From Phenylobacterium sp. (GTDB lineage: Bacteria > Pseudomonadota > Alphaproteobacteria > Caulobacterales > Caulobacteraceae), in contig NZ_JADBZL010000023.1 in assembly GCF_020402505.1 (NCBI RefSeq), forward strand, positions 3,623 to 67,622: a stretch of 64,000 nt of DNA, written 5' to 3'. Positions 7,762-46,944 of the stretch are shown here, one piece after another; position 1 is the stretch's first letter; every line of letters begins with the position of its first letter. Both the position numbers and the translations under genes were made by a program. The notes beneath the pieces were generated by a model. The model was given only the letters and a program-made list of their open reading frames with translations. It did not search any database and had not been told where the DNA came from.

Positions 7762-7785
7762 AAATGATATAACTCTATATCATTT
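7762..7785. promoter_or_regulatory. Operator motif A (perfect palindrome)
   Basis: AAATGATATA-ACTC-TATATCATTT, 13 bp upstream of the leftward operon. Confidence 0.85.
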
Positions 7786-7818
7786 GAGGACGACGCTGTT
7801 GGCAAGCCCAAAGGGCGG

Positions 7819-8610
7819 TCAGGTCCAGCCTTCGGCCCCCGACTTGCGCCGAGACGTCATGTGGTACTGGAACCGGTCTGGGCGGTAGTGGCCGACGATC
7901 ATCTGAACGGGGCGGCCGTCTGCGCCGATCATGATCCGCTCTATCTTCAGGACGGGCGATCCCGACGGCACGTCCAGACAGGCCGAAACGGTGGGCGAGG
8001 CCGCGCCCGCCGTAATCCACTGTTCAGCCTCCACGGCCTCGGCTCCAGCGCGTTCGAGCAGCGTCAGAAGAGGCGTCGTGCGCAGTTCATCAATCGGAAA
8101 GCGCGCCGCGATGTCGGCTGGAACGAAGGTCGTCAGGTAGGAGAACGGTTCGCCTTGCAGCTTTCGCAGGCGGACGGCCCTCTGAACCGTCGCCCCGGGT
8201 TCAAGCTTCAGTCGCGAGACGACAAGTGCATTGGCTGGCTCGTCCGCCACCTCCAGCAGCTCCACCTCGGTCGTGAGCCCCATCGACCTCAGGGACGAGA
8301 TCAGGGTCTCGAAGGAGCCAGACACCAGCGGGATCACCCCTCCGGTAGACACGATCGTCCCCCGACCTCGATGGCGCGAGACCAGATTGTTGGCGGCCAA
8401 TTCGTTCAACGCCCGTTTGACCGTGATACGCGACACGTCGAAGGCTCGCGCCAGCTCCTGCTCACCAGGCAGGGTCTCGCCATCGGCGTAGACGCCCGAC
8501 TGGATGCGTTCGCGCAGGATCAGATAGACCTGATGATACAACGGCGTGGGCAGGGCCGCGTTCAGAAGTCCCGCGTCGCGAGCCTCGATGTCTGATGCGC
8601 CGTCGGTCAA
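7819..8610 (-). CDS. GntR-family regulator (HutC/UTRA type)
   Basis: PLYHQVYLILRERI...LPGEQELARAFDVSRITVKRALNEL...RHRGRGT wHTH plus UTRA domain. Start uncertain (TTG 8610 or ATG 8661). Confidence 0.92.
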   Translation of the reverse strand: MTDGASDIEARDAGLLNAALPTPLYHQVYLILRERIQSGVYADGETLPGEQELARAFDVSRITVKRALNELAANNLVSRHRGRGTIVSTGGVIPLVSGSFETLISSLRSMGLTTEVELLEVADEPANALVVSRLKLEPGATVQRAVRLRKLQGEPFSYLTTFVPADIAARFPIDELRTTPLLTLLERAGAEAVEAEQWITAGAASPTVSACLDVPSGSPVLKIERIMIGADGRPVQMIVGHYRPDRFQYHMTSRRKSGAEGWT

Positions 8611-8632
8611 ATGACCTATTCCTAAACCAACT
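8609..8632. promoter_or_regulatory. Operator motif A (degenerate)
   Basis: AAATGACCTA-TTCC-TAAACCAACT between the divergent gntR and nitrilase genes. Confidence 0.5.
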
Positions 8633-8673
8633 CCGTCCGCGCTAGGCATAGGACGATCCATACGGAGCGCGCA

Positions 8674-9720
8674 ATGTCCGACCCCTCACCCTACATCGCT
8701 CTGGCCTTGCAGACGAAATGCTTCGCAGTCAACGGCGATGCCGACGCCCGCGCCAGTCGGCCCCGCATGGCGGAGGCGATCCGGCGGATCGGATCCCAGA
8801 TCGCAGCGTCGAAACGCTTCATCGGCCCGGACGTGCGACTGGTCGTCCTGCCGGAGTACTTCCTGACGGGCTTTCCAATGGGGGAACCCACCGCCGTTTG
8901 GTCCGAGAGGGCCTGCCTGGCGCCCGGAGGGCCCGAGTATCGGGCATTGGGGGAGATTGCCCGCGCCAATGACGTCTTCCTGGCCGGCAACGCCTATGAG
9001 ACCGACGAGCATTTTCCGGGCCTCTACTTCCAGTGCAGCTTCGTTGTGGCCCCCGCCGGAGAGGTGGTGCTTAGGTATCGCCGCCTTGTCACCCTGTTCG
9101 GTCCCAGCCCCTATGACGTCTGGGATCAATACTTGGCCAGGTACGGCCTGGATGGCGTCTTCCCCGTTGTCGACACCGAGATCGGTCGACTGGCGGCTAT
9201 CGCGTCGGAAGAGATCCTGTATCCCGAGATCGCCCGCGCCCAAGCCGTGCGCGGCGCCGAGGTGTTCGTCCACTCCTCAAGCGAGATCGCCGCTGCGCTG
9301 ACAACCCCGAAAAACGTCGCCAAACAGGCCCGCGCAATCGAGAACCTGACCTACGTCGTCAGCGCCAACTCGGCGGGCATAGAGGGCATCGCCATCCCCA
9401 GCGCCTCCACCGACGCATCCTCAAAGATCATCGATTTCCGGGGTCAGGTGCTCGCAGAAGCGGGCTATGGCGAGAGCATGGCGAGCTACGCCGAAATCGA
9501 CGTAGGTGATCTGCGTCGCTACCGCCGCCGTCCCGGCATGCCTAACCTCCTGTCGCGCCAGCCCATGCACCTTTGGAGCCAAGCCTACGCCGGCGTGGAC
9601 ATCCAGCCTAGCAACACACTGGTGGACGCGTGGGGAGAGCTGACCGTTCCGAACCCGGCCTTCTATGCCCAGCGTCAGCGAGCTGTGATCGACAAGCTGG
9701 TCGATGCAGGACTGATATAG
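8674..9720 (+). CDS. Nitrilase/carbon-nitrogen hydrolase superfamily protein with an atypical triad
   Basis: VVLPEYF, YRR and EIGRLAAIASEEILYPEIAR...GAEVFVH, AIENLTYVVSAN. Confidence 0.88.
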   Translation: MSDPSPYIALALQTKCFAVNGDADARASRPRMAEAIRRIGSQIAASKRFIGPDVRLVVLPEYFLTGFPMGEPTAVWSERACLAPGGPEYRALGEIARANDVFLAGNAYETDEHFPGLYFQCSFVVAPAGEVVLRYRRLVTLFGPSPYDVWDQYLARYGLDGVFPVVDTEIGRLAAIASEEILYPEIARAQAVRGAEVFVHSSSEIAAALTTPKNVAKQARAIENLTYVVSANSAGIEGIAIPSASTDASSKIIDFRGQVLAEAGYGESMASYAEIDVGDLRRYRRRPGMPNLLSRQPMHLWSQAYAGVDIQPSNTLVDAWGELTVPNPAFYAQRQRAVIDKLVDAGLI

Positions 9721-9839
9721 TCATCGCGAGCTCAACGGCGTTCACCGTGTCGTCATGGTTACGGTTTTTTGACAACCGGAGGCTCTGAACCGCGCCGCTG
9801 CATCGCAGCATTGACGCCTAATCTCGCTAGTCCATAGTC

Positions 9840-9863
9840 AAATGTCTCAAAAGTATATTGTTT
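9840..9863. promoter_or_regulatory. Operator motif A (degenerate)
   Basis: AAATGTCTCA-AAAG-TATATTGTTT upstream of TonB receptor 1. Confidence 0.6.
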
Positions 9864-9887
9864 CGGCAATAGGAGGGGCTGGACCCA

Positions 9888-12239
9888 ATGTCGCGCAATC
9901 ATCGTGTTATCCTGACCCGCAGCGTTTTCCTTGCGGGCGTCGCGTTCGCAGCCTTGACCTCGGCCGCCCCGCCCGCCTCCGCGCAGCGGGCATCGAACAC
10001 AGGCCCTGAAGCCACGACGGTCGATGACCTTGTGGTCACCGCGCGTCGGCGCGAGGAAGCGATCCAGGACGCGCCGATAGCCATCACCGCCTTCACGCAG
10101 GAAACCATCCAGGAAGCGCGGATCGAGAGCCTGGCGGACCTTGGGCGCCTGACTCCCGGCCTGGTCTACACGCCCCTGTTCGGCGCCCAGAACCAGCTGC
10201 CCATCATACGCGGCGCGGCCCAAACGTTCGGCCCACTGAACGTCGGCGTCTTCCTGGACGGCGTCTACCTTAGCGGCAAGGCCGGCGTGGACCTGGAGCT
10301 CAACGACCTGGAGCGGGTGGAGATCGTAAAGGGGCCGCAATCGGCGCTGTATGGCCGCAACACCTTCGCCGGCGCGATCAACTACATCACCCAGCGTCCC
10401 AGCAGCGGTGCTTATACCGGCAGCGCCGAGCTGACGGTCGGCGACAACGGTCTACGCAAGGGCATGCTGTCTATCAGCGGTCCGCTGAACGACTGGCTTG
10501 CGTTCCGCCTGTCGGGATTCGCGCGCACGTTCGACGGCTTCTACACCAGCTCCATCGATGGCGGCCGCGTCGACTTCGTGGAGAACAGCGGGGCGTCGCT
10601 CGTGGTTGAAGCACGTCCGACCGACCGCCTGACTGCGACCTTCCGAACGACCGTGAGCACCGAGGACTCGGGTCAGCCCGCATCGAGCGTCATTCGCACC
10701 AATGGCGCGCCCGGCACGCCTGCGGGTGGGTCGGCAACCCAGCAGCGCAACCTGCTCTACCTCGGCGAACTGCCTTCGATTCCCGAGAACGGGGTCACGG
10801 TGAATACCCGCCGCACGGGCTTCGAGCCGACCGACTACGGCCAGCGTGGCGACACCCTGCGGACCAGCCTGACGCTGGACTACGATTTCGACTATGCGAC
10901 CCTGACCTCGATCAGCAGCTACAGCCGCCGCAAGACGGAGTACACGTTTGACGGCGACAACACGATCTGCGACCGCGCCGGCGGATGCCCCAACTTCGGC
11001 TTCCCCTTCGCCCCGGCGATCCCCTTCGGCCAGAGCAGCTTCGCCACCTCCTCCAGCGAAGACCGCTTCTTAGACCGCAGCCAGGAACTGCGCCTCGCCT
11101 CCAATGGCGACAGCCGCCTGCAATGGCTGATCGGGGCCTTCTACTATTCGAACGAGGTCCGCGTTCTGGCGAAGAGCCAGGCGCCACTGACCCAAGCCGC
11201 CGTCAACACCAACGGCGTTCCGCGCTCGCGCACCGAGATCGACAGCATCGCGGTGTTCGGATCCCTCGCCTACGAGTTCTCCGACCGCCTTCGCGGGTCC
11301 GTCGAGCTACGCTACGAGGAGGAGGATCAGAGCTACCAGCAGGCGCCGTCACGAACCGGCGGAACGGGAGCCTCGGCCCTGGTTCGCAACTCCAAACAGT
11401 CCTTCGACTTCACCACGCCCCGCGTCACGCTGGACTATGACCTGACGGAAAACGGAATGCTCTACGGCATCATCGCGCGCGGAGCCAAGGCGGGCGGGTT
11501 CAACACCAACCTGAACATCACCACGGCCCAATGGACCTATCAGCCCGAGTATAGCTGGAACTACGAGATCGGGTTGAAAAACACCCTCCTGGATGGCGAT
11601 CTGATCCTGAACGCCGCCCTGTTCTATACCGACTGGACCGACCAGCAGGTGGCCTGCCAGAACCCGGTGACGCTGGGCGGGACGTCGACCCAGCGAACCT
11701 ATACCTGCAACGTCGGTAAGGCCGAGGTCCTCGGCCTGGAACTGGACGGCGTGTGGCAGCTGACCGACACCCTGACACTCAGCGGCAACTACGCTTACAC
11801 CGACGCGACCTATTCGGCGTTCGTGGACGACTCGCTCGCCGCGACCCTGGTGCTGGCCGGCCGCCCGCCCATCGACTTCAACGGCAACCACCTGCCGTAT
11901 GTGCCCGAGCACAAGCTGGTGATCAGCCCGCAGTACGAGCGCGAGCTCGGCAACGGCGTGAACTTCTCGGTCCGGGCCGACGTGGCCTACCAGTCCAAGG
12001 CCTACCTGCGCGCCGACAACCTGCAATACTTCGGCGAGAAGACGACGCTGGACCTGCGGCTGACGCTACGCGGCGAGGATGGCTGGCGGATTCAGGCCTA
12101 TGCCGACAACGTTCTGGACGACGACACGCCGACGGCCGGCGTGCGCTTCTTCGACTCGGTCAACTACTCGGTGTCCTCGCCGCTGGTGACCGGGGCCGAC
12201 CGGCGCCAGATCGGCGTGGCGATCGGGTACTCTTTCTGA
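9888..12239 (+). CDS. TonB-dependent receptor
   Basis: Signal peptide, TonB box (DDLVVTARRREE), plug motif VEIVKGPQSALYGRNTFAGAIN and C-terminal Phe. Confidence 0.96.
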   Translation: MSRNHRVILTRSVFLAGVAFAALTSAAPPASAQRASNTGPEATTVDDLVVTARRREEAIQDAPIAITAFTQETIQEARIESLADLGRLTPGLVYTPLFGAQNQLPIIRGAAQTFGPLNVGVFLDGVYLSGKAGVDLELNDLERVEIVKGPQSALYGRNTFAGAINYITQRPSSGAYTGSAELTVGDNGLRKGMLSISGPLNDWLAFRLSGFARTFDGFYTSSIDGGRVDFVENSGASLVVEARPTDRLTATFRTTVSTEDSGQPASSVIRTNGAPGTPAGGSATQQRNLLYLGELPSIPENGVTVNTRRTGFEPTDYGQRGDTLRTSLTLDYDFDYATLTSISSYSRRKTEYTFDGDNTICDRAGGCPNFGFPFAPAIPFGQSSFATSSSEDRFLDRSQELRLASNGDSRLQWLIGAFYYSNEVRVLAKSQAPLTQAAVNTNGVPRSRTEIDSIAVFGSLAYEFSDRLRGSVELRYEEEDQSYQQAPSRTGGTGASALVRNSKQSFDFTTPRVTLDYDLTENGMLYGIIARGAKAGGFNTNLNITTAQWTYQPEYSWNYEIGLKNTLLDGDLILNAALFYTDWTDQQVACQNPVTLGGTSTQRTYTCNVGKAEVLGLELDGVWQLTDTLTLSGNYAYTDATYSAFVDDSLAATLVLAGRPPIDFNGNHLPYVPEHKLVISPQYERELGNGVNFSVRADVAYQSKAYLRADNLQYFGEKTTLDLRLTLRGEDGWRIQAYADNVLDDDTPTAGVRFFDSVNYSVSSPLVTGADRRQIGVAIGYSF

Positions 12240-12253
12240 AGGCCCTTGCGGTC

Positions 12254-13204
12254 ATGATGACCGGGCTCGCCCTCGCGGCGGGCCCGGTTCTGACCCAGTC
12301 CGCGCCGCCTGCGCCGCTGGCGGCGGGGCCGCTGGAACGCGACCTGCGCGCTCTGGTCGAGATGTTTCAGGGGGACTGGGACAACGCAGAGCAGGTCGGG
12401 TTCGCCGAGGAGCTCGGCTTTCCTGCCGACGCCCCGCCGACTCGCCGCCATGTCACGATCCGCCGGGTGGAGGCCCCTGGCCTTGGGCCGCTCGTGCTGA
12501 AGCTCGACGAATACCGGAACAATGACCCCACCGATCTGGGGCGGCAGAGGTTCTATGCGCTCGCGGTTGACGCGGACCAGCGGGCGATCCGGATGGATTC
12601 CTTCACGCCGCCCGGCGACCGTCTTGCGCCCGATGCCAACCTGGCCAGCCTCACGCCGGCGACCCTGCGGCGCAATCCGGGCTGCGAGACCCTGTGGCGG
12701 CGCAGCGCCGATCAGTTCATCGGATGGATCGAAGACGGCGCATGCAGCGTGCGCACCAACGCCGGGACGACCCTGGCCATCGGGGCGGAGATCGTCCTGT
12801 CAGAGGACCAGCTCTGGATGACCGAGACCGTGCGGGACACTGAGGGCCGCGACGTCACGCCGGACGAGCCCGACGCCCCGGTCCAATACCGCCGCGCCAC
12901 GGCCTTTACCTGCTGGATAGCTGTGCCGAGGCAAGCTCCGCAGGAGGGCTGGTTCTTCGCCCGGGACCTGACCATCCACGACCAGGGCGGCGAGGTCTGG
13001 ATCACCACCGACGAGACCACGCCCCGCTCGTTTGGCTTCGGCATGCGGAACGTGCGCTGGCCGACGGGACAGAACGCCGACGCCCTGACGCTGTATGTCC
13101 ACGACCAGAGAGGCGCGCCCGCGATCAGCTATGCCTGGGCAAACCCCGACGCGACGCGGATCGGGATCAATCTGCGGACGCTGCAAGGCAGCTGTTCGCG
13201 CTAG
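12254..13204 (+). CDS. Secreted CpcT/CpeT (T-type bilin lyase)-like protein with C-terminal extension
   Basis: MFQGDWDNAEQ, GRQRFY and NPGCETLW match the CpcT/CpeT pattern. Signal-like N-terminus. Follows the receptor after 14 bp. Confidence 0.72.
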   Translation: MMTGLALAAGPVLTQSAPPAPLAAGPLERDLRALVEMFQGDWDNAEQVGFAEELGFPADAPPTRRHVTIRRVEAPGLGPLVLKLDEYRNNDPTDLGRQRFYALAVDADQRAIRMDSFTPPGDRLAPDANLASLTPATLRRNPGCETLWRRSADQFIGWIEDGACSVRTNAGTTLAIGAEIVLSEDQLWMTETVRDTEGRDVTPDEPDAPVQYRRATAFTCWIAVPRQAPQEGWFFARDLTIHDQGGEVWITTDETTPRSFGFGMRNVRWPTGQNADALTLYVHDQRGAPAISYAWANPDATRIGINLRTLQGSCSR

Positions 13205-14130: not shown

Positions 14131-14154
14131 AAGTGATATAGACTTAGATCATTT
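14131..14154. promoter_or_regulatory. Operator motif A
   Basis: AAGTGATATA-GACT-TAGATCATTT between divergent genes. Confidence 0.75.
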
Positions 14155-33345: not shown

Positions 33346-33346
33346 G

Positions 33347-33835: not shown

Positions 33836-33843
33836 CGGCCATC

Positions 33844-33864
33844 CCTCTCCCACCGGGAGAGGGA
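33844..33864. repeat. Short intergenic palindrome (REP-like)
   Basis: CCCTCTCCC-ACC-GGGAGAGGG between convergent genes. A partial copy, TCTCCCACCGGGAGA, lies near 44788. Confidence 0.5.
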
Positions 33865-33875
33865 GACCTGTACCC

Positions 33876-34766: not shown

Positions 34767-34794
34767 CTCTCGCCCTCCGGTGCGTTCAGATGAT

Positions 34795-35088: not shown

Positions 35089-35123
35089 GTCAGCCCCCTT
35101 GCCATATCCACACTAGCGCGCTC

Positions 35124-35147
35124 AAATGGCATAAATCTATATCATTT
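35124..35147. promoter_or_regulatory. Operator motif A
   Basis: AAATGGCATA-AATC-TATATCATTT between divergent genes. Confidence 0.78.
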
Positions 35148-35172
35148 CGCCAACTAACGAGAACCGGGCCTC

Positions 35173-37052: not shown

Positions 37053-38449
37053 TCCGCCCCGGCGGCGAGCGCGGCTTCGTCACGGTCGACGGCCGTCGCG
37101 TCCTGATCCGTCGTTACGGACGCGGCCCTGCGGTCTTTGTGATCCACGGCTCGCCCCAGTCCTCGCGCGCCGTCGAGGCCGTGTGTCAGACCCTCGCCGC
37201 GCGCGGCCTGACCGCCATAGCCCCGGACACGCCGGGGGCCGGAGCTTCGGATCCCCTGCCCCTTGCAGACCCCGACAGCGCCGACTTCGCCGCCGCCCTG
37301 CACCGCCTGACCGGGACGCTGGGCCTTTCCCGTGTTGGCCTTTACGGCTTTCACACCGGGGCCGCGACCGCCGCAACCTTTGCGGCCCTGTTCCCTCAGA
37401 ACACCGCCGCTCTTGTCTGTGACGGCCTGCCCGCGTGGACCGAAACCGAACGCGCCCGCTTTCTCGCGGACTATCTGACGCCCTTCGAACCGAGGTGGGA
37501 CGGCTCCCACATGGCCTGGCTGTGGGCGCGTATGGAGGCCCAGACCGTCTTCTTCCCCTGGCACTCGACCGCCCCTTCAGAGCGCATGTCGATGGCCGTC
37601 TCCAGCCCGGAGCAAATCCATGCCAACGCTATGGACCTCCTGGCCGCGGGAGATTGCTATCGCCCGGTCTATCGCGCCGCCTTTACGTTCCGGGCCGAGA
37701 CCGTTGTTGCTCGCCTGCCGTCCACCGCCCTCGTCGTATGCGCCGCCTCCGACGTCCTCGCCACCCATCTTGACCGCCCGGCGCTCGCTGGTCGTGGCCT
37801 GATCCTGCCGGACATGCCGAACCTTCACGCCGCCGCCGCCGACCACCTCGCGGCCCATCCTGGTGAGCCGGCTCCCAATCACCTCGAGGGCGGTTTCCTC
37901 GCGCTCGGCGACGAGCGCCTCGCGATCCACCGCCTCTCCGAAGGGCCCGGCTGCCCGCTCGTAATCCTCCACGACGCCGGCGGTTCAGCCGAAGATCTGA
38001 CAGCGCCGACCGACCGCCCCGTCATCGCGCTGGATCTCCCTGGCCACGGACTTTCTGCAGAGGGCTGGCACGGTCCCGTTGACTGGCCCGGGATCGTCCG
38101 CACCGTGCTAAACGCGTTGAACCTCTCTGACGCCGAGGTCTCCGGCGTGGGCGCCGGCTCTGTGCTCGCATCCGCCCTGTCCGGCGCGGCGCCCATGCCC
38201 TGCCGTGTCCTCGGCGTGCCAAATCCCCCGCCGAAGCTGTCGCCCCAATGGGACGGCGCCCACCTGATCCGCGCCTTCCGCATCGCCTCATGGGAGCGGC
38301 TGTTCGACCCTTGGCACCGCCGCGACCCTGCTCATCGCATCCACCGTCCGTCAGACCTCAGCGCCGTCCATGCCCGAGCAGTCAGTCTGCTCCTCGCCCA
38401 ACAGAGATGGTCCGCCCTGGAGACATGGGCGGTTCAAAACGCGCCCTGA
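37049..38449 (+). CDS. Two-domain alpha/beta-hydrolase-fold protein
   Basis: IHGSP, APDTPG.G.S, GFHTGA elbow, and a second module LHDAGG...DLPGHG. GTG start overlaps the upstream TGA. Confidence 0.8.
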   Translation: MIRPGGERGFVTVDGRRVLIRRYGRGPAVFVIHGSPQSSRAVEAVCQTLAARGLTAIAPDTPGAGASDPLPLADPDSADFAAALHRLTGTLGLSRVGLYGFHTGAATAATFAALFPQNTAALVCDGLPAWTETERARFLADYLTPFEPRWDGSHMAWLWARMEAQTVFFPWHSTAPSERMSMAVSSPEQIHANAMDLLAAGDCYRPVYRAAFTFRAETVVARLPSTALVVCAASDVLATHLDRPALAGRGLILPDMPNLHAAAADHLAAHPGEPAPNHLEGGFLALGDERLAIHRLSEGPGCPLVILHDAGGSAEDLTAPTDRPVIALDLPGHGLSAEGWHGPVDWPGIVRTVLNALNLSDAEVSGVGAGSVLASALSGAAPMPCRVLGVPNPPPKLSPQWDGAHLIRAFRIASWERLFDPWHRRDPAHRIHRPSDLSAVHARAVSLLLAQQRWSALETWAVQNAP

Positions 38450-40194: not shown

Positions 40195-40218
40195 AAATGA
40201 TATAGGATTATATCTTTT
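40195..40218. promoter_or_regulatory. Operator motif A
   Basis: AAATGATATA-GGAT-TATATCTTTT upstream of the leuC-like gene. Confidence 0.82.
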
Positions 40219-40250: not shown

Positions 40251-41561
40251 ATGGCTGGAGCCAAGGCCACAAGGGGTCGCACGCTTGTCGAGAAGATCGC
40301 CGCCAAGGCGTCGGGTCAAAAAGACGCGCGCGCGGGCGATCTGGTGACGGCCGAGGTGGACCTCTGCTTCGCGCATGACAGCTCTGGACCACGCCGCTGG
40401 GCGCCGATGCTGGCGGAGATTGGGCGCGGCCTGTGGGATCCGTCCAAGGTCGTGATCGCGTCGGATCACTACGTGCCTGCGGTTGACGCCGAGAGCGCAG
40501 CTATTTTGAGCCTGACACGCCGGTTCGCTGCCGAACATGCCGTGGGCCGCTTCTACGACATGGAAGGAATCGGCCATATGCTGCTGGCCGAACGGGGACT
40601 GGTGCGGCCTGGCATGCTCGTGGCGGGGGGCGACAGCCATACGCCTATGGCCGGCGCCTTCGGGGCCTATGCCGCCGGCTACGGAGCGACAGATATGGCG
40701 GCGATCGCTGCAACGGGTCGCACCTGGCTGGAAGTGCCCGCGACGATCAGGGTGGAGTGGTCCGGGGCCCTGGCGGACGGGGTGACGGCCAAGGACGTGA
40801 TGCTGTTCCTGTGCCGCGAACTGGGCATGGACAATGCCTTCCGCGCGGTGGAGTTCGCCGGTCCGATGGTCGAGGCCATGTCGATGCCCGAGCGGCTGGT
40901 CTTGACCAATATGGCCGCCGAGCTGGGAGCCGAAACCGGGATCGTGGCGCCGGACGCGACCACCCTTGCCTGGCTGAGGGAGGTCGGAGCGCCGGTCGAG
41001 GATGAGGCGGCGGCGCAGGCCTGGACGTCCGATCCGGACGCGGACTATATCGCTTTACACCGGTTCGACGCGGGCGCCCTCGAACCCATGATCGCCCTGC
41101 CCCACTCCCCCGCCAACAGTGTGTCGGTCGCCAGCGCCGCTGGTCGCCGAATTGACCAAGCCTATGTCGGAGCCTGCGTGGGAGCAAAGCTGGAAGACCT
41201 GCACATGGCCTCGCGGGTGCTGGCGGGCCAAAGGATAGCGCCTGGCGTGCGGTTGCTCGTCGCCCCGGCGTCGTCGCGGGTTACGGAGGCCGCCGCGCGA
41301 GATGGGACCCTGGCCTGTCTGATGGCTGCCGGGGCCACCCTTTTGCCGTCGGGTTGCGGGGCCTGCGCGGGGATGGGCGCGGGCCTGCTGGCCGATGGCG
41401 AGGTTTGCATCTCGACGACCAATCGGAATTTCAAGGGCCGGATGGGCCATGCAGGAGCCGAGGTCTATCTCGGCTCGCCCTATAGTGTGGCGGCGGCGGC
41501 CGTCGCTGGAAGGATCATCGATCCGCGGGGTTACCTCGGTCAACGGAGGGCGGCGGCATGA
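40251..41561 (+). CDS. LeuC/DmdA/HacA-like aconitase-family hydratase large subunit
   Basis: DH.VP, GGDSHT, three cluster Cys (GACVG, GCGAC) and STTNRNFKGRMG. Confidence 0.9.
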   Translation: MAGAKATRGRTLVEKIAAKASGQKDARAGDLVTAEVDLCFAHDSSGPRRWAPMLAEIGRGLWDPSKVVIASDHYVPAVDAESAAILSLTRRFAAEHAVGRFYDMEGIGHMLLAERGLVRPGMLVAGGDSHTPMAGAFGAYAAGYGATDMAAIAATGRTWLEVPATIRVEWSGALADGVTAKDVMLFLCRELGMDNAFRAVEFAGPMVEAMSMPERLVLTNMAAELGAETGIVAPDATTLAWLREVGAPVEDEAAAQAWTSDPDADYIALHRFDAGALEPMIALPHSPANSVSVASAAGRRIDQAYVGACVGAKLEDLHMASRVLAGQRIAPGVRLLVAPASSRVTEAAARDGTLACLMAAGATLLPSGCGACAGMGAGLLADGEVCISTTNRNFKGRMGHAGAEVYLGSPYSVAAAAVAGRIIDPRGYLGQRRAAA

Positions 41562-42070
41562 CCCTACCCGACAGCGGCCGTGCCTTCGTGTTCGGCGACC
41601 AGATCGATACCGACCTCCTGGCGCCAGGCCACCTGATGAAGCTCGATCCAGACGCTCTGGCAAGCCACTGCCTGGAGGCCATCAATCCGACGTTCGCGAG
41701 CAGCGTACGCGCGGGAGACTTCGTCGTGGCCGGGCTGAACTTCGGTCTGGGGTCGTCGCGCGAGCAGGCCGCAGTCTCGCTGAAGCGCCTGGGGGTGCGA
41801 GCCGTCATCGCCCGGTCTTTCGCGCGAATCTTCTGGCGCAATGCCATCAACCTGGGCCTACCTGCGATAACTCTCGCCGCCGCGCACGAGATCATGGCCG
41901 GCGACCGGCTGAGCCTCGATCTGCAGGCGGGCGAACTGATCAATGAGACTTCGGGTCGGGTCTATGCGTTCGCCCCCTTCCCCGACCACCTGACGGCGAT
42001 GATGCGCGATGGAGGGCTGATCGCCCATCTGAAGCGTTCCGCCTCTGAACCCTCGGGAGCCGCATCGTGA
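41558..42070 (+). CDS. LeuD/DmdB-like hydratase small subunit
   Basis: FGDQIDTD, NFGLGSSREQA and SFARIFWRNAINLGL. Confidence 0.9.
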   Translation: MTLPDSGRAFVFGDQIDTDLLAPGHLMKLDPDALASHCLEAINPTFASSVRAGDFVVAGLNFGLGSSREQAAVSLKRLGVRAVIARSFARIFWRNAINLGLPAITLAAAHEIMAGDRLSLDLQAGELINETSGRVYAFAPFPDHLTAMMRDGGLIAHLKRSASEPSGAAS

Positions 42071-42945
42071 GCCTGAAGGCCCGCCTGACAACGCCGGGAC
42101 CGGCGGTCCACGCACCGGGTGCATTCGACGCTCTGTCGGCCCTGCTGATCCAGCAGGCGGGCTTTGAGGCCATCTACTTGTCCGGCGCGTCTATCGCTTA
42201 CACCCAACTTGGACGGCCGGACCTTGGGCTGGTTAGCTTCGACCACGTCGCAGATGTGGTGGCCCGCATCTGCGAGCGGGTGGACATTCCCCTGATCGTC
42301 GATGCCGATACGGGCTTCGGGAACGCCCTGAACGTGGCGCGTACGGTCAAGGTTTTCGAGCGTAACGGGGCCCGCGCCATTCAGCTGGAGGATCAGACGT
42401 TCCCGAAACGCTGCGGACACCTTGCCGGCAAGGGCGTGACCTCGACGAAGGACATGGTCGGCAAGATCCATGCGGCGCTGGATGCCAAGAGATTCGACGA
42501 GACCCTGATCATCGCCCGGACCGACGCCATCGCGGTGGAGGGATTCGAACCCGCACTGGAGAGAGCGGTCGCCTATGCAGAGGCGGGCGCGGACGTTGTC
42601 TTTGTCGAGGCCCCGCGCGACCAGGAGCAGATGAAGTGCATCGTGACGACGCTCGGCCGCACGCCCGCCATGGCCAATATGGTCGAGGGCGGAAAGACGC
42701 CGATACTGACCCGGGACGCCCTGGGAGAGATTGGCTTCAGGCTGGTTATCAGCCCTGGCGCCCTCGTGCGCGCCCTGATCCCTGCGGCGGAGAGCTTCCT
42801 GAGGACGCTCGGGACGGAAGGGTCGACCGTCAGCTACAGGGACAGGATGACGGACCTCGCCGGGGTAAACGCCCGAATCGGCCTGGAGGAGATGTTGGCG
42901 CTCGGCGACCGCTACGAGCGGGAGCGAGAGGAAGCGGCAGAGTGA
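42067..42945 (+). CDS. Isocitrate lyase/PEP mutase family C-C lyase (2,3-dimethylmalate/methylisocitrate lyase-like)
   Basis: DADTGFG, LEDQ.FPKRCGH, IARTDA, FVEA and ANMVEGGKTP. Confidence 0.9.
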   Translation: MSLKARLTTPGPAVHAPGAFDALSALLIQQAGFEAIYLSGASIAYTQLGRPDLGLVSFDHVADVVARICERVDIPLIVDADTGFGNALNVARTVKVFERNGARAIQLEDQTFPKRCGHLAGKGVTSTKDMVGKIHAALDAKRFDETLIIARTDAIAVEGFEPALERAVAYAEAGADVVFVEAPRDQEQMKCIVTTLGRTPAMANMVEGGKTPILTRDALGEIGFRLVISPGALVRALIPAAESFLRTLGTEGSTVSYRDRMTDLAGVNARIGLEEMLALGDRYEREREEAAE

Positions 42946-43892
42946 ACCGCTCCGATCCCAACCTCTACGACCACTGGCCCTATCGCGACCGGCCGAAGAT
43001 CACCTGGCCGGGCGGCAAGGCCCTGGCCTTCTGGATCGCGCCCAACATCGAATTCTACGAGTTCGACCCGCCGGTGAACCCGGCGCGACCCGGCTGGCCG
43101 CGCCCGGCCCCGGATGTGGTTGGCTATTCCCAGAGGGACTGGGGCAATCGGGTCGGGCACTGGCGGCTTCAGGACCTGCTGGACCGGCACGGGCTGAGGG
43201 GGTCCGTATCGCTGTCGATCGGGCTGATCGACCACCACCCCGAGATCATCGAAGCAGCCAACGCGCGGGGCTGGGAGTTCTTCAGCCACGGTATCTACAA
43301 CACCCGCTACTCCTACGGCATGGACGAGGCCCAGGAACGGGCGATTCTGGTCGACTCGATCCGCTCGGTCGAGGCCGCGACGGGCCAGCGCATCCGGGGT
43401 TATCTGGCGCCTGCCCTGACGCACACGGCGCGGACCCTTGATCTGCTCGGCGAGCACGACTTCTGGTATTCCTGCGACTTGTTCCAGGATGACCAGCCCC
43501 AACCACTGAAGACGAGATCCGGGCGGCTGGTCTCCATGCCCTATTCGCTCGAGGTCAACGACGTCATCGGCTACTCGGTGATGGGCTTGGACCCTTGGCG
43601 ATATGCCGACATCCTGAAGCGTCATTTCGACCAGCTGCTGGCCGAGGGGCGCGAGAGCGGAACGGTGATGTGCATACCGCTGCACGCTTATCTGGTCAGC
43701 CAGCCGCATCGTATCCGGGCCTTCGAGAACGCGCTGGAGCACATAATGGACCACCGCGATGATGTCTGGTTCGCGACGGGGTCGGAGATCGCGGCTCACT
43801 ACCTGGAGCACTGCTGGGATCAGACGGTGGCGGACATTCAGCGGCGCGGCCTGGCGACAGGCGGATATGGGTTCGACGATGCCGCTGCCTGA
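42942..43892 (+). CDS. Polysaccharide-deacetylase-fold (PuuE-like) protein
   Basis: WPGGKALAFWIAPNIE, RDWGNRVG.WR, PYSLEVND and PLH..LVSQP.R. Confidence 0.88.
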   Translation: MNRSDPNLYDHWPYRDRPKITWPGGKALAFWIAPNIEFYEFDPPVNPARPGWPRPAPDVVGYSQRDWGNRVGHWRLQDLLDRHGLRGSVSLSIGLIDHHPEIIEAANARGWEFFSHGIYNTRYSYGMDEAQERAILVDSIRSVEAATGQRIRGYLAPALTHTARTLDLLGEHDFWYSCDLFQDDQPQPLKTRSGRLVSMPYSLEVNDVIGYSVMGLDPWRYADILKRHFDQLLAEGRESGTVMCIPLHAYLVSQPHRIRAFENALEHIMDHRDDVWFATGSEIAAHYLEHCWDQTVADIQRRGLATGGYGFDDAAA

Positions 43893-44781
43893 GGAGCATC
43901 TTATCTATCCACACCGGCGACGGGGCATGGACCAGTCGCTCTACGACTGGCGGCCGGCGACGGCGCGGCCCAGGGGGCGCTGGCCCGGCGACCGCGAGAT
44001 GGCGATCATGATTGTGATGCCGGTCGAGTGGCACATGCTTGATCCTTCGGGAAAGCCGTTCAAGCATCCCGGCGCCATGCAGACCGCATGGCCGGACCTC
44101 CGGCACTACACGACAAGAGACTATGGCCCCCGCGTGGGGGGCTTCCGCCTGCTACGGGCGCTGAAGGAGGCGGGGCTGAAGGCGACTGTCCCGGTGAACG
44201 GAATCGCGTTGGAGCGTTACCGGCCGCTGGTCGAGGCGGCGCTGGAGGACGGGCACGAGATCGCAGCTCACGGCTGGTCTACGGATGCGATCCATCATTC
44301 GGGTTTGTCCGAGGGCGAAGAGAGGGCGCTGGTGGCGCGCGCACGCGAAGCCTTCGAGCGCGTGGGCCTGAAGCCCCGCACGTGGATGAGCCCGGCACGG
44401 CAGCAGTCATTCCGCACCCTGTCGCTGATCGCCGAGGCAGGCTTCGACGTCTGCCTGGACTGGGAGCAGGACGAGGTGCCGGTGGTGATGACCACCGACG
44501 CCGGGATGGTTCACGCCGTGCCGTTGATGAACGAGCTTGACGACCGGACGCTGCTGATCGATCGGCGACAGACAGAAGACGCGTGGATCGATCAGGTGCT
44601 GGAGGCGGCGACCTATCTGAAGGCCGACGCCGGAACCGAAGACCGGCGGGTGCTGGGCTTTACCCTGACGAGCTACGTCGCGGGCCAGCCGTTCCGGATG
44701 AGCGCCGTGCGCCGCATGCTCGCGGGTCTGGCGGAAGTTCGGGCGTGGTCTGCGACGGCGAGCGAGATCGCGGCCGCCTGA
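43879..44781 (+). CDS. Polysaccharide-deacetylase-fold (PuuE-like) protein, divergent paralog
   Basis: RDYGPRVG.FR, EIAAHG and NELDD. Confidence 0.82.
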   Translation: MPLPEEHLIYPHRRRGMDQSLYDWRPATARPRGRWPGDREMAIMIVMPVEWHMLDPSGKPFKHPGAMQTAWPDLRHYTTRDYGPRVGGFRLLRALKEAGLKATVPVNGIALERYRPLVEAALEDGHEIAAHGWSTDAIHHSGLSEGEERALVARAREAFERVGLKPRTWMSPARQQSFRTLSLIAEAGFDVCLDWEQDEVPVVMTTDAGMVHAVPLMNELDDRTLLIDRRQTEDAWIDQVLEAATYLKADAGTEDRRVLGFTLTSYVAGQPFRMSAVRRMLAGLAEVRAWSATASEIAAA

Positions 44782-44784
44782 CGC

Positions 44785-45381
44785 CTATTCTCCCACCGGG
44801 AGATCGGTAAGTACCTGATTCAGTTCGACGTAATGACCGTCGGGATCATAAACCGACGAGAAGCTCACGCGGATCACGCTGGTCCCGTCGTAGCCGGGGT
44901 AGGTCACCACATGAGGCGTCTCCCCCACCCGGACGCCCGGCGAGGCGACGGCGCGGGCGAAGACCTCTTCCTGGTTCTCGACGTTGAACACGAGCACGAT
45001 GTCGCCGGGATTCAGCAAGTTGTCGTCCGGGGCGCGCTTGGGCCGGGGCTGGCGTTCAGGCCTAGTGTATTCCATCAGGCCGAGGATGCCGATGTAGTCG
45101 TTGTTGGCGCGCAGGAAGACGAGCCGCAAAGACTGCTCGGCCGACTCGTCGTTCTTGGCGTCTCGCGGCGTACGGATCACGTTGTCATAGATCGGCACGA
45201 GACCGATCGCTCGGTAAAAGGCCAGAGATGCCTCGATGTCGCGCACCACCAGGGTGGTGCGCCGCAGGTCCAGCGGAACACGCTGGTCGGCCGACACCCG
45301 CTCGGGAGCGGGCGCGGCAATTGCACCGGCGCCACAGGCCGAGGTCGCCACGACCAAAGCCAACATCAGGGCGCGGATCAT
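44785..45381 (-). CDS. VOC family protein with signal peptide
   Basis: Hydrophobic N-terminus, RRTTLVVRDIEASLAFY and YDPDGHYVELN. Confidence 0.8.
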   Translation of the reverse strand: MIRALMLALVVATSACGAGAIAAPAPERVSADQRVPLDLRRTTLVVRDIEASLAFYRAIGLVPIYDNVIRTPRDAKNDESAEQSLRLVFLRANNDYIGILGLMEYTRPERQPRPKRAPDDNLLNPGDIVLVFNVENQEEVFARAVASPGVRVGETPHVVTYPGYDGTSVIRVSFSSVYDPDGHYVELNQVLTDLPVGE

Positions 45382-46076
45382 CGGGCGGTCTCCAGGTGGT
45401 TCAGGACATCGGCCGCCGGCAGGACATCGGCGTACTTCAGCAGCAGGTCCGTCAGGTTGGCGTAGTGGTAGCTCTCGTGCTTGTCGGCGACGCATTCGAC
45501 CGGGACGATCGTCCGGTATCCGCGCGACAGGCTTTCCACGGCCGTGGCGCGAACACAGCCCGAGGTCGAGCCACCGGTGACGATCACCGTGTCGATGCGA
45601 TGCCAGATCAGGTAGCTCTGCAGCGGCGTCTCGTGAAATGCCGACGGCATGCGCTTGTCGAAGATCAGGTCGACCTCGCAGTCGGGCCGAGCGCGCGGAT
45701 CAAACGCGTGACGGTCCGAGCCGAACCGGATGTTCTGCAGGCTGTCGGGCGTGTCGCTCCGTGTGCCCCACACGCCCGCGTCACCGCCGTCGGGCTTGTA
45801 ACAGACGCGGGTCCAGACGACCGGCAGACTTGCGGCGCGAGCAGCTTCGCTGATCCGGTTGATCCAGGCTATCTGGTCCGGGTCAGTCACGTAGGCTGTC
45901 TTCGGAAAAAGGTCTGGCCGGGTGTAAGCTTGCTGCACATCGACATTGACAACAGCGGATCGCTGGCCGAAGCCGAAACTCCGGCGCGCCGGGCTCGCCC
46001 GCACTTCCTCATAGATCAGTCTAGCGGGCCGGTCGTCGCGGGTCATCGTGGGTTCGAAACGCAGATCGCCCATCAT
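45378..46076 (-). CDS. Isochorismatase-family amidohydrolase (maleamate amidohydrolase NicF / N-carbamoylsarcosine amidase-like)
   Basis: VDVQ (Asp), DKR.PSAF (Lys), TSGCVRAT (Cys) and H.ANL.D...KYADV. Confidence 0.87.
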   Translation of the reverse strand: MMGDLRFEPTMTRDDRPARLIYEEVRASPARRSFGFGQRSAVVNVDVQQAYTRPDLFPKTAYVTDPDQIAWINRISEAARAASLPVVWTRVCYKPDGGDAGVWGTRSDTPDSLQNIRFGSDRHAFDPRARPDCEVDLIFDKRMPSAFHETPLQSYLIWHRIDTVIVTGGSTSGCVRATAVESLSRGYRTIVPVECVADKHESYHYANLTDLLLKYADVLPAADVLNHLETAR

Positions 46077-46870
46077 TGCGGCTCCCCGGACTGCAGGCGC
46101 CGGATCTCTTGAAGTCCCGTCGGCGGCGCTCGCCAGAGCGGGGCCTCCGTCTCGACGTAGTCGCGCAGCGAGGCGGGCACGTCCTTCCATTGGTCAATGC
46201 GCCAAGTAACCAGGTGCATGATCGCCGGCCCACCGCCTGCCCACGCCGGGGCCTCTCCGTACCGGACCCAGGAAAGCTGGTTCGGATTGGAGGCCCCGCC
46301 CGGCGCCTGGATGAAGAAATCGTAGTTCTCGAAGGCCTGGTAGCGGCGCTCCCCGCGGGTCGGTATGTCCAGAAAGAGCGGCGCGGTGAACACGTAGGCG
46401 TCGCCGATCCGGCGCGCCTGCATCGTATCGCCCGGTCCGATGCGCTGGAGACGCGCGCCTGAGCCTTGTTCCACCATCGTTGTCAGGCGATCACCGACCA
46501 GCTCGTAGGTGATGAACTGATAGGGATAAGCCACCGGTTCGACGGCGACTCCGTTCCTCTCCCGCAGGACCTCGTTCGATTCCGCGTCCCGATAGATGTA
46601 AATCTTGCGCGAGAACTGCCGCGCCAGCGCCCGGCCGGGATCCGGGCGGTCGGACATCGATGTGTCGAAGCCTTCGACCCGCGCAAGCAGATCGCCCGAA
46701 GGATAGGCCCGCAGAGTGCCGACGGAATACCAATAGACCGGCCGCCCCGTCCCGGTGCGAGCATCGACAAACACGTCGAAGCTTTCCCGGTTGAACCCCT
46801 GGCTCTTGGCGTCGTCTCCCAAGCCAGCCAGAGTGGCCGCGATGAATGCAAGCAGGGTCAATCGTCGCAT
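46073..46870 (-). CDS. DUF1838-like secreted protein (second, divergent)
   Basis: Signal peptide, VYWYSVG...LARVEGF and LSWVRYG..P.W. Confidence 0.6.
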   Translation of the reverse strand: MRRLTLLAFIAATLAGLGDDAKSQGFNRESFDVFVDARTGTGRPVYWYSVGTLRAYPSGDLLARVEGFDTSMSDRPDPGRALARQFSRKIYIYRDAESNEVLRERNGVAVEPVAYPYQFITYELVGDRLTTMVEQGSGARLQRIGPGDTMQARRIGDAYVFTAPLFLDIPTRGERRYQAFENYDFFIQAPGGASNPNQLSWVRYGEAPAWAGGGPAIMHLVTWRIDQWKDVPASLRDYVETEAPLWRAPPTGLQEIRRLQSGEPQ

Positions 46871-46920
46871 TTGTGCGCCTCCAATCCGCAATCAGGGTAA
46901 CCCCGCTTGTCGGCGGCTTC

Positions 46921-46944
46921 AAATGATATAAGATTATACCAATA
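46921..46944. promoter_or_regulatory. Operator motif A
   Basis: AAATGATATA-AGAT-TATACCAATA between DUF1838-like gene 2 and TonB receptor 2. Confidence 0.72.

What the first reader, a model, noticed from the sequence alone, without database searches (positions are those of the whole stretch)
7762..46944. A 24-bp palindromic operator repeated at 8 promoter regions unifies the island
Consensus AAATGATATA-N4-TATATCATTT at 7762 (perfect), 8609, 9840, 14131, 31706 (perfect), 35124, 40195 and 46921. All are AT-rich spots just upstream of operon starts, several between divergent genes, including both TonB receptors. I did not notice it outside the island. The site at the first gntR start suggests that GntR is the autoregulated repressor (inference). 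This is direct sequence evidence that these scattered operons answer to one signal.
Basis: partly seen in the sequence, partly recalled or inferred. Interest (0 to 1): 0.78.

Follow-up and report, generated by a model that had tools for sequence, protein, structure and literature searches.

The report
GntR repressor operator of a catabolic island
A 26-bp palindrome found only in this Brevundimonas gene island is very probably the DNA docking site of the island's own HutC-type GntR regulator, so about a dozen scattered operons of an uncharacterised breakdown pathway are switched together; the kind of switch is ordinary, but it is well supported and conserved in many related bacteria.

Summary
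The observation largely holds. Six of the eight listed sites are strong matches to cAAATGrTMTA-N4-TAKAyCATTTg (7762, 14131, 31706, 35124, 40195, 46921). They are the only such sites in the 2.87-Mb assembly, and all are intergenic.

The 8609 site is weaker but conserved in relatives. The 9840 site is a decayed copy of a site that is strong in relatives.

The GntR interpretation is supported by comparative genomics, not by experiment:
- Orthologues of the 7819-8661 HutC-type GntR carry this motif within 5 kb in 70 of 80 loci from many genera, mainly Caulobacterales plus Niveispirillum/Azospirillum.
- The motif sits upstream of orthologues of the same target genes.
- The second GntR of the island co-occurs in most of these genomes but is not adjacent to the motif.
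- The two arms vary independently, which points to protein half-sites and not to a hairpin.

"Unifies the island" is only partly right. The central 16-30 kb block lacks the motif and carries another palindrome next to the second GntR.

One unusual point: the half-sites lie 12-14 nt apart, against 5-8 nt in solved GntR-DNA complexes.

Verdict: a new, well-supported member of a known kind of regulon. Binding, repression and the inducer are untested.

The parts
7762..7785 (.). Operator site 1, a perfect palindrome AAATGATATAACTCTATATCATTT. It lies 33 bp after the gntR1 stop and 12 bp before the ATG (7749) of the membrane-protein/FAD-oxidase/aldehyde-dehydrogenase operon.
   Evidence: 51-54 bits. 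The same position is occupied in 23 relatives' sites.
8609..8632 (.). Operator site 2, a diverged site in the gntR1/nitrilase-like divergent region. It lies 41 bp before the nitrilase-like ATG (8674) and overlaps the possible gntR1 starts.
   Evidence: 17.4 and 20.8 bits. Conserved as AGTTGGTATAGGAATAGGTCATTTG in 7 relatives, and 35 bits in L043.
9840..9863 (.). Decayed operator in front of TonB-dependent receptor 1 (ATG 9888). A TTGACG-16-CATAGT promoter-like element ends at 9838.
   Evidence: 12.3 bits and below 10 bits with the independent PWM. The orthologous position holds 36-41-bit sites in relatives. Promoter scan.
14131..14154 (.). Operator site between the tandem DUF3598-like genes (-, probable ATG 14090) and the enoyl-CoA hydratase gene (+, 14218).
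   Evidence: 35-41 bits. Orthologous sites lie before the ECH gene in 9 relatives' sites.
31706..31729 (.). Operator site, a perfect palindrome, between the HapK-like/SDR operon (-, start 31676) and the methyltransferase operon (+, probable ATG 31757).
   Evidence: 46-50 bits. The same divergent pair carries a site in relatives.
35124..35147 (.). Operator site between the DUF1330/DUF1838 operon (-, 35088) and the unknown-293/ADH/alpha-beta-hydrolase operon (+, 35173).
   Evidence: 42-44 bits. L063 has a site at the same pair.
40195..40218 (.). Operator site 32 bp before the operon for the aconitase-like hydratase (large and small subunits), ICL-family lyase and deacetylase (+, 40251). The MFS transporter gene (-, 39927) lies 267 bp away.
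   Evidence: 45-48 bits. 15 relatives' sites lie before orthologues of the hydratase gene.
46921..46944 (.). Operator site between the unknown-272/isochorismatase-like/glyoxalase operon (-, 46891) and TonB-dependent receptor 2 (+, 46993).
   Evidence: 46-47 bits. 10 relatives' sites lie before orthologues of this receptor.
7819..8661 (-). gntR1, a HutC-subfamily GntR regulator (wHTH plus UTRA) and the proposed cognate repressor. The start is uncertain (ATG 8661, ATG 8649 or TTG 8612).
   Evidence: Pfam GntR 6e-21 and UTRA 2e-31. PDB relatives DasR and NagR/YvoA. Orthologue-motif linkage.
3382..7749 (-). Target operon: 216-aa membrane protein (no Pfam family), FAD_binding_4 oxidase, aldehyde dehydrogenase and an unknown 237-aa protein.
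   Evidence: Pfam. This is the most often motif-preceded operon in relatives.
8674..13204 (+). Target genes: nitrilase-fold protein (8674-9720), TonB-dependent receptor 1 (9888-12239) and a downstream CpeT/CpcT-like protein.
   Evidence: Pfam. Sites 8609 and 9840.
30532..38449 (.). Target divergent operons: HapK-like/SDR against methyltransferase plus two unknowns, and DUF1330/DUF1838 against unknown-293/ADH/alpha-beta hydrolase.
   Evidence: Pfam. Sites 31706 and 35124.
40251..49308 (.). Target operons: LeuCD-like hydratase, ICL/PrpB-like lyase and deacetylase (+); unknown-272, isochorismatase-like and glyoxalase (-); TonB-dependent receptor 2 (+).
   Evidence: Pfam and NCBIfam. Sites 40195 and 46921.

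Best explanation
The element is the operator of a local regulon. Its consensus is the palindrome cAAATGrTMTA-N4-TAKAyCATTTg.

I infer that the HutC-subfamily GntR protein encoded at 7819-8661 binds it as a dimer (or higher oligomer), one winged-helix domain per arm. The sites lie 12-63 bp upstream of start codons, where they probably overlap the core promoter or transcription start.

In the proposed model, binding shuts off up to about 12 transcription units (roughly 25-30 genes) through six strong sites and one weaker one. These include two TonB-dependent receptors, an MFS transporter, amidases and deacetylases, a LeuCD-like hydratase, an ICL-family lyase, an FAD oxidase and an aldehyde dehydrogenase. 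The regulator's own gene would be controlled through the weaker site at 8609.

A pathway substrate or intermediate would bind the UTRA domain, release the protein and induce all units together.

Shown here: the sites, their exclusivity to the island, their conservation upstream of orthologous genes, and their linkage to gntR1 orthologues. Inferred: binding itself, repression rather than activation, autoregulation, and the nature of the inducer.
For: 1. Statistics. Six matches against 0.00 expected. Two PWMs, one built only from other genomes' sites, find strong hits nowhere else in the 2.87-Mb assembly.

2. Linkage to gntR1.
- In 80 loci fetched by gntR1 homology from many genera there are 139 PWM hits in 1.27 Mb, against 0 for a column-permuted PWM.
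- 70 of 80 loci have a site within 5 kb of the gene, and 52 within 700 bp.

3. Phyletic pattern.
- In 41 relatives the motif occurs in 6 genomes. All 6 are among the 8 that have a gntR1 orthologue.
- In 201 genomes of the order, 19 of 23 motif-bearing genomes have the orthologue, against 22 of 178 without the motif.

4. Regulon conservation. Sites precede orthologues of the same genes: membrane-protein operon 23 times, hydratase operon 15, the two receptors 17, ECH 9, methyltransferase/HapK 7 and 4. In genus g8 the only two sites in a genome sit at the hydratase operon divergent from gntR1 and at the FAD-oxidase operon 300 kb away.

5. Discrimination from GntR2.
- 16 loci centred on GntR2 orthologues have only 3 weak, differently shaped hits.
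- G036 and G099 have the motif and a gntR1-like gene but no GntR2.
- G112 and G189 have GntR2 but neither gntR1 nor the motif.

6. The arms vary independently (odds ratio 1.0 at the R position), as expected for protein half-sites.

7. The protein is a bona fide HutC-type regulator. Its recognition region VSRITVKRA is invariant among orthologues. Variant half-sites TGGTATA and TGGTCTA resemble classic HutC-family half-sites (PMC4333415).

8. No other recognisable transcription factor is encoded in the island apart from GntR2.
Against: - No binding or expression data exist.
- The 80 loci were collected through gntR1 homology, so adjacency there is partly by design. The unbiased evidence is the phyletic pattern. 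That pattern is shared in large part by GntR2, which occurs in 16 of the 23 motif genomes, and related genomes are not independent.
- About half of the genomes with a gntR1 orthologue (mostly 40-52% identity, genera g7 and g2) lack a stringent motif match. Only weak diverged hits were seen next to the gene in L030 and none in L031.
- The operator does not fit the usual HutC-subfamily consensus GT-N4-AC. Its half-sites are 12-14 nt apart, against 5-8 nt in solved GntR-DNA complexes (PMC4494728, PMC4333415), so a canonical dimer footprint is not assured.
- Promoters are not mapped. Only one consensus promoter was found, at the decayed site, so repression by occlusion is inferred from position alone.
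Confidence: 0.78

Rival explanations
1. The motif is bound by the island's second HutC-type regulator, GntR2 (about 22829-23527, +), or by both paralogues, and not by GntR1.
For: GntR2 orthologues (37-59% identity) occur in 32 of 201 genomes of the order and in 16 of the 23 motif-bearing ones. The phyletic pattern alone therefore does not separate the two. GntR2 is also a GntR+UTRA protein.
Against: - No motif-A site lies near gntR2 in the window; the nearest palindrome is a different one at 21487.
- 16 GntR2-centred loci (10 kb each) have no strong site, only 3 weak hits of a different shape.
- G036 and G099 have the motif but no GntR2, and G112 and G189 have GntR2 but no motif.
- The recognition helix differs: SRHTARDAIRLL against SRITVKRALNEL.
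Confidence: 0.07
2. The motif is the site of an unlinked regulator encoded elsewhere (for example a TetR, MarR or IclR protein), or it works as an activator site. The gntR1 linkage would then only reflect co-inheritance with the pathway genes.
For: - Any gene of the conserved pathway cluster would show a similar phyletic correlation.
- The half-site spacing is atypical for GntR proteins (PMC4494728, PMC4333415).
- In g7 genomes gntR1 orthologues exist without clear motif matches.
Against: - In genomes with a minimal regulon (g8, two sites only), one site is in the gntR1 divergent promoter.
- In g11 the single site heads the operon that contains the gntR1-like gene.
- No other transcription factor is found in the island.
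- TGGTATA and TGGTCTA variant half-sites are typical of the HutC family.
Confidence: 0.1
3. The palindrome acts as a nucleic-acid structure (an RNA hairpin in 5' UTRs, or a terminator after gntR1), or it is a small mobile repeat (MITE/REP-like), and is not a protein operator.
For: - Ten-bp arms with a 4-nt loop could fold.
- Site 7762 lies 33 bp after the gntR1 stop.
- The island contains IS elements.
Against: - Arm positions that vary do so independently. There are no compensatory changes (observed paired equals expected; odds ratio 1.0, p=1 at position 6), while specific bases (G, T, A) are invariant.
- Flanks are not conserved.
- Sites occupy orthologous promoter positions in distant genera with 48-72% GC.
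- Sites serve divergent gene pairs, so most cannot be in both transcripts.
Confidence: 0.03

Closest known systems
NagR/YvoA of Bacillus subtilis and DasR of Streptomyces coelicolor (GntR/HutC repressors with dre operators)
   Same: - The same two-domain architecture, with full-length homology (E 4e-18 to 6e-21).
- Arg48 and the wing Gly69 of NagR are conserved.
- Palindromic operators at promoters of catabolic and transport genes, with release by a pathway metabolite (PMC4333415).
- Variant half-sites here read TGGTCTA or TGGTATA, like dre half-sites.
   Different: - NagR's recognition tetrads are separated by 6 nt (GTGGTCTAGACCAC). Here the invariant G and C are 14 nt apart, and an inner TMTA block is also conserved.
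- NagR Arg38, which reads G-5, is Gln here and in most orthologues.
- The targets are not amino-sugar genes.
HutC-subfamily regulons reconstructed by comparative genomics (Suvorova et al. 2015, PMC4494728; Leyn et al. 2016, PMC5343134)
   Same: - The logic and the evidence type are the same: 15-25-nt palindromes.
- A single site in the middle of a divergon serves both operons.
- The regulator gene is part of the regulon.
   Different: - Most HutC-subfamily motifs have GT and AC 4 nt apart (NyGTMTAKACNy). This one would be GT-N10-AC in its TGGTATA form.
- It belongs with the listed exceptions (FarR, NagQ, SdhR).
- I found no description of this regulator or motif in the searchable library.
NagQ (HutC-type regulator of N-acetylglucosamine genes in proteobacteria)
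   Same: A TGGTAT-type box repeated with a spacer of a few bases (direct repeats TGGTATT, PMC4494728). In some Xanthomonas genomes the NAG regulons include TonB-dependent receptors, though under NagR (PMC5343134).
   Different: NagQ boxes are direct repeats. Here the boxes are inverted. The regulon content is unrelated.

Membership tests
GntR family, HutC subfamily (the regulator) | N-terminal GntR-type winged helix-turn-helix domain (PF00392) | tested here: met
   PF00392 at 6.1e-21, residues 41-104.
GntR family, HutC subfamily (the regulator) | C-terminal UTRA effector-binding domain (PF07702) | tested here: met
   PF07702 at 2.2e-31, residues 127-265, covering the full profile.
GntR family, HutC subfamily (the regulator) | Full-length similarity to structurally solved HutC members | tested here: met
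   2ra5, DasR (4zs8, 9i0v) and NagR/YvoA (4u0v, 4wwc, 2wv0), E 5e-23 to 5e-18 over residues 10-246.
GntR family, HutC subfamily (the regulator) | DNA-reading residues of NagR (Arg38, Arg48, wing Gly69; PMC4333415) | tested here: inconclusive
   Arg48 and Gly69 are conserved. Arg38 is Gln in GntR1 and in 5 of its 6 aligned orthologues, and Lys in the sixth. This is compatible with an altered half-site but is not a test of binding.
HutC-subfamily operator (the DNA site) | Palindrome matching NyGTMTAKACNy, with GT and AC 4 nt apart (PMC4494728) | tested here: not met
   The consensus is AAATGrTMTA-N4-TAKAyCATTT. The invariant G and C are 14 nt apart, and GT...AC (in TGGTATA variants) are 10 nt apart. 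The source paper lists exceptions, so this lowers 'canonical HutC operator', not 'HutC-type regulator site'.
HutC-subfamily operator (the DNA site) | Direct binding by the regulator and release by an effector | not testable with these tools
   Needs EMSA, footprinting or DAP-seq, and effector screening.
Conserved transcription-factor regulon (comparative-genomics criterion) | Sites conserved upstream of orthologous genes in several genomes that carry the TF orthologue, and not found where the TF is missing | tested here: met
   Caveat: genomes with 40-52%-identical orthologues often lack stringent matches.
Mobile repeat (MITE/REP) or structured RNA element | Conserved flanks or terminal repeats, or compensatory changes that keep arm pairing | tested here: not met
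   There is no information outside the 26 bp. There is no arm covariation.

The most novel reading that the evidence does not exclude
Two things could be new.

(a) This HutC-type protein reads two half-sites 12-14 nt apart, about half a helical turn more than in any solved GntR-DNA complex. The conserved TATA-N4-TATA core might act as a flexible hinge, or two dimers might bind. Either would mean a DNA-binding-domain arrangement not yet seen in the family.

(b) The regulon it defines could be an undescribed pathway for taking up and degrading a nitrogen-containing, branched-dicarboxylate-yielding compound. Candidates are tetrapyrrole- or bilin-derived maleimides. Pointers are the receptors, a CpcT-like protein, amidases, a dimethylmaleate-hydratase-like LeuCD and an ICL-family lyase. 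The carriers are alphaproteobacteria that often live with cyanobacteria and algae.
Probability: 0.2. Interest if true: 0.75.

Novelty: new member of a known kind. Interest (0 to 1): 0.45.

Why it matters
The motif and its regulator give a clean, experimentally tractable definition of which of the roughly 40 island genes act together. They also show that this set is conserved from Brevundimonas to Oceanicaulis, Phycosocius and Niveispirillum. That makes the unknown pathway directly testable in three ways:
- the inducer of one purified regulator should be the substrate or an intermediate;
- a gntR1 deletion in a cultured carrier (for example Brevundimonas bacteroides DSM 4726) should derepress the whole set;
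- the operator could serve as a biosensor part.

The wide half-site spacing is a useful test case for how flexible HutC-type dimers are on DNA. As a regulatory principle it is ordinary.

Tried and rejected
- Neighbour check in g8. I first assumed that the gene next to the single g8 site would be the gntR orthologue. Alignment showed it is an AccD-like protein, and the neighbour in G017 is a paralogue of the membrane protein. The true orthologues lie elsewhere.
- Phyletic profiling to separate GntR1 from GntR2. This does not separate them well, because both belong to the same conserved gene set. Adjacency and four discordant genomes had to carry the argument.
- Motif B (AATGTCCGGACATT) in relatives. 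The search was as noisy as its control, so GntR2 could not be tied to it.
- Consensus promoter scans. They gave one hit at the decayed site and nothing at the strong sites, at chance level overall.
- The weak 30002 hit from the first PWM was not reproduced by the independent PWM.
- Literature searches for the regulator, the pathway or a bilin/maleimide catabolic route found nothing pertinent.
- The scan's own index holds no look-alike of the regulator.
Full report
**Setting**

The window is G000:C141:3623-67622 of a 2.87-Mb, 224-contig assembly with 68.5% GC, rated 93% complete. Titles of the closest loci name Brevundimonas. Genes were called by GC3 and annotated with Pfam and NCBIfam.

**The observation**

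The pattern AAATGATATA-N4-TATATCATTT with up to 3 mismatches occurs six times, against 0.00 expected from shuffles:

| Site | Mismatches |
|---|---|
| 7762 | 0 |
| 31706 | 0 |
| 40195 | 1 |
| 14131 | 2 |
| 35124 | 2 |
| 46921 | 3 |

- Aligning the sites shows one more conserved base on each side (C...G) and no information beyond that. The unit is therefore a 26-bp palindrome and not part of a longer repeat.
- A PWM from these six sites finds them again at 41-54 bits in the whole assembly and nothing else above 17.4 bits. Three of the eight best weak hits (8609, 30002, 9840) lie in the island.
- A second PWM, built only from 104 distinct sites of other genomes, again recovers the six (35-51 bits) plus 8609 (20.8 bits). 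The best hit outside the island is 16 bits, and 9840 and 30002 fall below 10 bits.
- Site 8609 is conserved almost base for base in seven close relatives (AGTTGGTATAGGAATAGGTCATTTG). It reaches 35 bits in a Phenylobacterium-labelled locus.
- Site 9840 lies exactly where relatives have a 36-41-bit site (CCAAATGATATACTTTTAAGCCATTTGA). In this genome both arms are mutated, including the otherwise invariant T and C. It is a decayed operator.

The tally is six strong sites, one weaker conserved site, one remnant, and none elsewhere in the assembled genome.

**Positions**

All sites are intergenic.

| Site | Neighbouring genes and distances |
|---|---|
| 7762 | 33 bp after the gntR1 stop; 12 bp before the ATG of a four-gene operon (216-aa membrane protein, FAD_binding_4 oxidase, aldehyde dehydrogenase, unknown) |
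| 8609 | 41 bp before the nitrilase-fold gene; on top of the possible starts of gntR1 (ATG 8661, ATG 8649, TTG 8612; unresolved) |
| 14131 | between two DUF3598-like genes and an enoyl-CoA hydratase gene |
| 31706 | between HapK-like/SDR and a methyltransferase operon |
| 35124 | between DUF1330/DUF1838 and an unknown/ADH/hydrolase operon |
| 40195 | 32 bp before a LeuCD-like hydratase/ICL-family lyase/deacetylase operon; 267 bp from an MFS gene |
| 46921 | between an unknown/isochorismatase-like/glyoxalase operon and the second TonB-dependent receptor |

Distances to start codons are 12-63 bp. Promoters are not mapped. The only consensus sigma-70-type match is TTGACG-16-CATAGT, ending at 9838, just before the decayed site. 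Its -35 element (TTGACGCC) is conserved in relatives.

**Which protein binds it**

The island encodes two recognisable regulators, both GntR+UTRA (HutC subfamily): gntR1 at 7819-8661(-) and gntR2 at about 22829-23527(+). They share 28% identity. No other transcription factor was found among the island's genes.

*Phyletic pattern*
- In 41 relatives the motif (2 mismatches or fewer) occurs in six genomes. All six are among the eight that have a gntR1 orthologue.
- In an even draw of 201 genomes of the order, 23 have the motif and 41 have a gntR1 orthologue, with 19 in common. The four discordant motif hits are 2-mismatch, GC-richer matches.

*Linkage*
- 80 loci retrieved by gntR1 homology come from Brevundimonas, Phenylobacterium, Oceanicaulis, Glycocaulis, Maricaulis, Alkalicaulis, Aquidulcibacter, Candidatus Phycosocius, Niveispirillum, Azospirillum and others.
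- They contain 139 PWM hits in 1.27 Mb, against none for a column-permuted PWM.
- 70 of 80 loci have a site within 5 kb of the gene and 52 within 700 bp. Typical positions are about 50-100 bp past the stop (as in the window) or about 575 bp upstream in a divergent promoter.

*Minimal regulons*
- In genus g8 each genome has just two sites. One lies in the promoter region between the gntR1 orthologue and the divergent hydratase/lyase operon. The other lies 300 kb away before the membrane-protein/FAD-oxidase/ALDH operon.

*GntR1 against GntR2*
- GntR2 orthologues co-occur with the pathway too: 32 of 201 genomes, and 16 of the 23 with the motif. The phyletic profile alone therefore cannot decide.
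- 16 GntR2-centred loci show no strong motif-A site.
- G036 and G099 have the motif next to a gntR1-like gene and no GntR2.
- G112 and G189 have GntR2 but neither gntR1 nor the motif.
- In the window, gntR2 is associated with a different palindrome, AATGTCCGGACAT(A/T), at 21487 and 28426.

The gntR1 assignment is therefore well supported but remains an inference from comparative genomics.

**Regulon conservation**

Across the 80 loci the motif precedes orthologues of the same genes:

| Gene or operon | Sites preceding it |
|---|---|
| Membrane-protein operon | 23 |
| Hydratase operon | 15 |
| The two receptors | 17 |
| Enoyl-CoA hydratase | 9 |
| Methyltransferase / HapK pair | 7 / 4 |
| Isochorismatase-like gene | 4 |
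| Nitrilase-like gene | 3 |

This is the standard criterion for a true regulon.

**Protein site or nucleic-acid structure**

In 80 distinct sites, positions that vary (R at arm position 6, M at position 8) vary independently in the two arms. The observed count of symmetric pairs equals the expected count, with odds ratio 1.0 and p=1 at position 6. G5, T9 and A10 are essentially invariant. That is the signature of two independently read half-sites, not of a hairpin kept by compensatory change.

**Geometry**

- GntR1 aligns over its whole length with NagR/YvoA and DasR.
- In the NagR-DNA structure the recognition tetrads of GTGGTCTAGACCAC are 6 nt apart. G-5 is read by Arg38, G-4 by Arg48, and the wing Gly69 enters the minor groove. 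FadR has 5 nt and AraR 6 or 8 nt between tetrads (PMC4333415).
- Most HutC-subfamily motifs have GT and AC 4 nt apart (PMC4494728).
- In GntR1, Arg48 and Gly69 are kept, but Arg38 is Gln. This holds in 5 of its 6 aligned orthologues.
- The operator has one invariant G per arm, preceded by T and followed by A (72%) or G (28%).
- If the invariant G corresponds to NagR's G-4, the tetrads (AATG) are 14 nt apart. If it corresponds to G-5, they are 12 nt apart. Either way the spacing is about half a turn wider than in any solved complex.
- The inner TMTA blocks are conserved as well. The protein may use a more open arrangement of its two DNA-binding domains, helped by the flexible TA-rich core, or more than one dimer may bind. 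This is inference.
- The family paper lists other non-canonical HutC motifs (FarR, NagQ, SdhR), so this is unusual but not unprecedented.

**What the motif does not cover**

The block from 16 to 30 kb has no supported motif-A site. It contains:
- the amidase/PaaK-like ligase/two PrpD-like operon;
- the acetyl-CoA-hydrolase-like gene plus gntR2 operon;
- the deacetylase/GST/HpcH-lyase/MaoC/ACAD/two CoA-transferase operon.

The island is thus two sub-regulons and not one. It is flanked on the left by an rve-type transposase and interrupted by an IS630 element. Within Brevundimonas it is patchy, found in 2 of 25 genomes sampled.

**Mechanism proposed**

- In the absence of inducer, GntR1 occupies the operators at or just downstream of the core promoters and represses. 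HutC-type proteins are typically repressors (PMC4333415).
- Single sites in divergent regions serve both operons, as described for this family (PMC4494728).
- The weaker 8609 site gives milder autoregulation.
- A pathway metabolite bound by the UTRA domain releases the protein.
- The decayed 9840 site predicts that receptor 1 is partly or fully constitutive in this strain.

**Limits**

- No experiment and no transcript data were available.
- E-values and counts across related genomes are not independent.
- The literature library searched is partial.

**Verdict**

The feature is real and well supported. It is a new member of a known kind: a HutC-type GntR regulon with a palindromic operator. 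The operator spacing is atypical, and the target pathway is unidentified and possibly interesting.

Noticed in passing
window 21487-21500 and 28426-28439: A second palindrome, AATGTCCGGACAT(A/T), occurs twice against 0.09 expected. One copy is at the divergent start of the PrpD-like operon and the operon holding the second GntR. The other is at the GST/HpcH-lyase junction inside the 29972->23610 operon. It may be the GntR2 operator.
   Followed up: partly
window 9840-9863: The operator before TonB-dependent receptor 1 has decayed in this genome (5-6 changes, including invariant bases), while close relatives keep a 36-41-bit site. The promoter-like element TTGACG-16-CATAGT directly upstream is conserved.
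   Followed up: yes
L044 12465/12567, L046 10209/10312, L050 4817/4920, L084 12463/12567, L010 6153/6255: In loci labelled Phenylobacterium, in unclassified Alphaproteobacteria MAGs and in G017, the membrane-protein operon has two operators 102-104 bp apart (about ten helical turns). This suggests cooperative binding or looping. The window has single sites only.
   Followed up: no
window 30048-30700 (+): An apparent broken paralogue of the 216-aa membrane protein (MIIGEIEVLRRLHILAMVYLLGG...) starts after the weak 30002 hit and seems frameshifted near G-runs. An intact divergent paralogue exists in G017 (L010:6265-7041).
   Followed up: no
window 1988-2992 (-) and 15022-15970 (-): An rve-type (IS3-like) transposase lies at the left edge of the island and an IS630-type element inside it. 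With the patchy distribution within Brevundimonas, this fits an accessory, transferable gene set.
   Followed up: partly
window 7099-7749 (-) and orthologues (alignment A2): The first gene of the most conserved target operon encodes a 216-aa multi-pass membrane protein with no Pfam family. It has many invariant residues (HxLxxxVYWLGGDLG..., DMAPRTA) and always precedes the FAD_binding_4 oxidase. It may be a membrane partner or electron acceptor of that oxidase.
   Followed up: no
window 40251-42945 (+): The small subunit of the hydratase matches NCBIfam's 'LeuD/DmdB family' model. The lyase scores below the PrpB cut-off (278 against 354 bits).
   Followed up: partly
L119:9876, L124:954, L127:9712 (near GntR2 orthologues of genus g8): Weak PWM hits there share a different palindrome of the same layout (TAGGTATA-N4-6-TATACCTA). 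It is possibly the site of another HutC-type paralogue.
   Followed up: no
L036, L037 (record titles): Loci 91-93% identical to the Brevundimonas gntR1 region are deposited under MAGs labelled Methylocystis and Phenylobacterium. This is probably a binning or labelling error.
   Followed up: no
record titles of L034-L113: Many carriers of the regulon come from cyanobacterial or algal associations or bloom metagenomes: Phycosocius from Botryococcus, Oceanicaulis from black-band disease mats and a CCAP culture, and Lake Mendota and pond MAGs. This is a hint about the source of the substrate.
   Followed up: no
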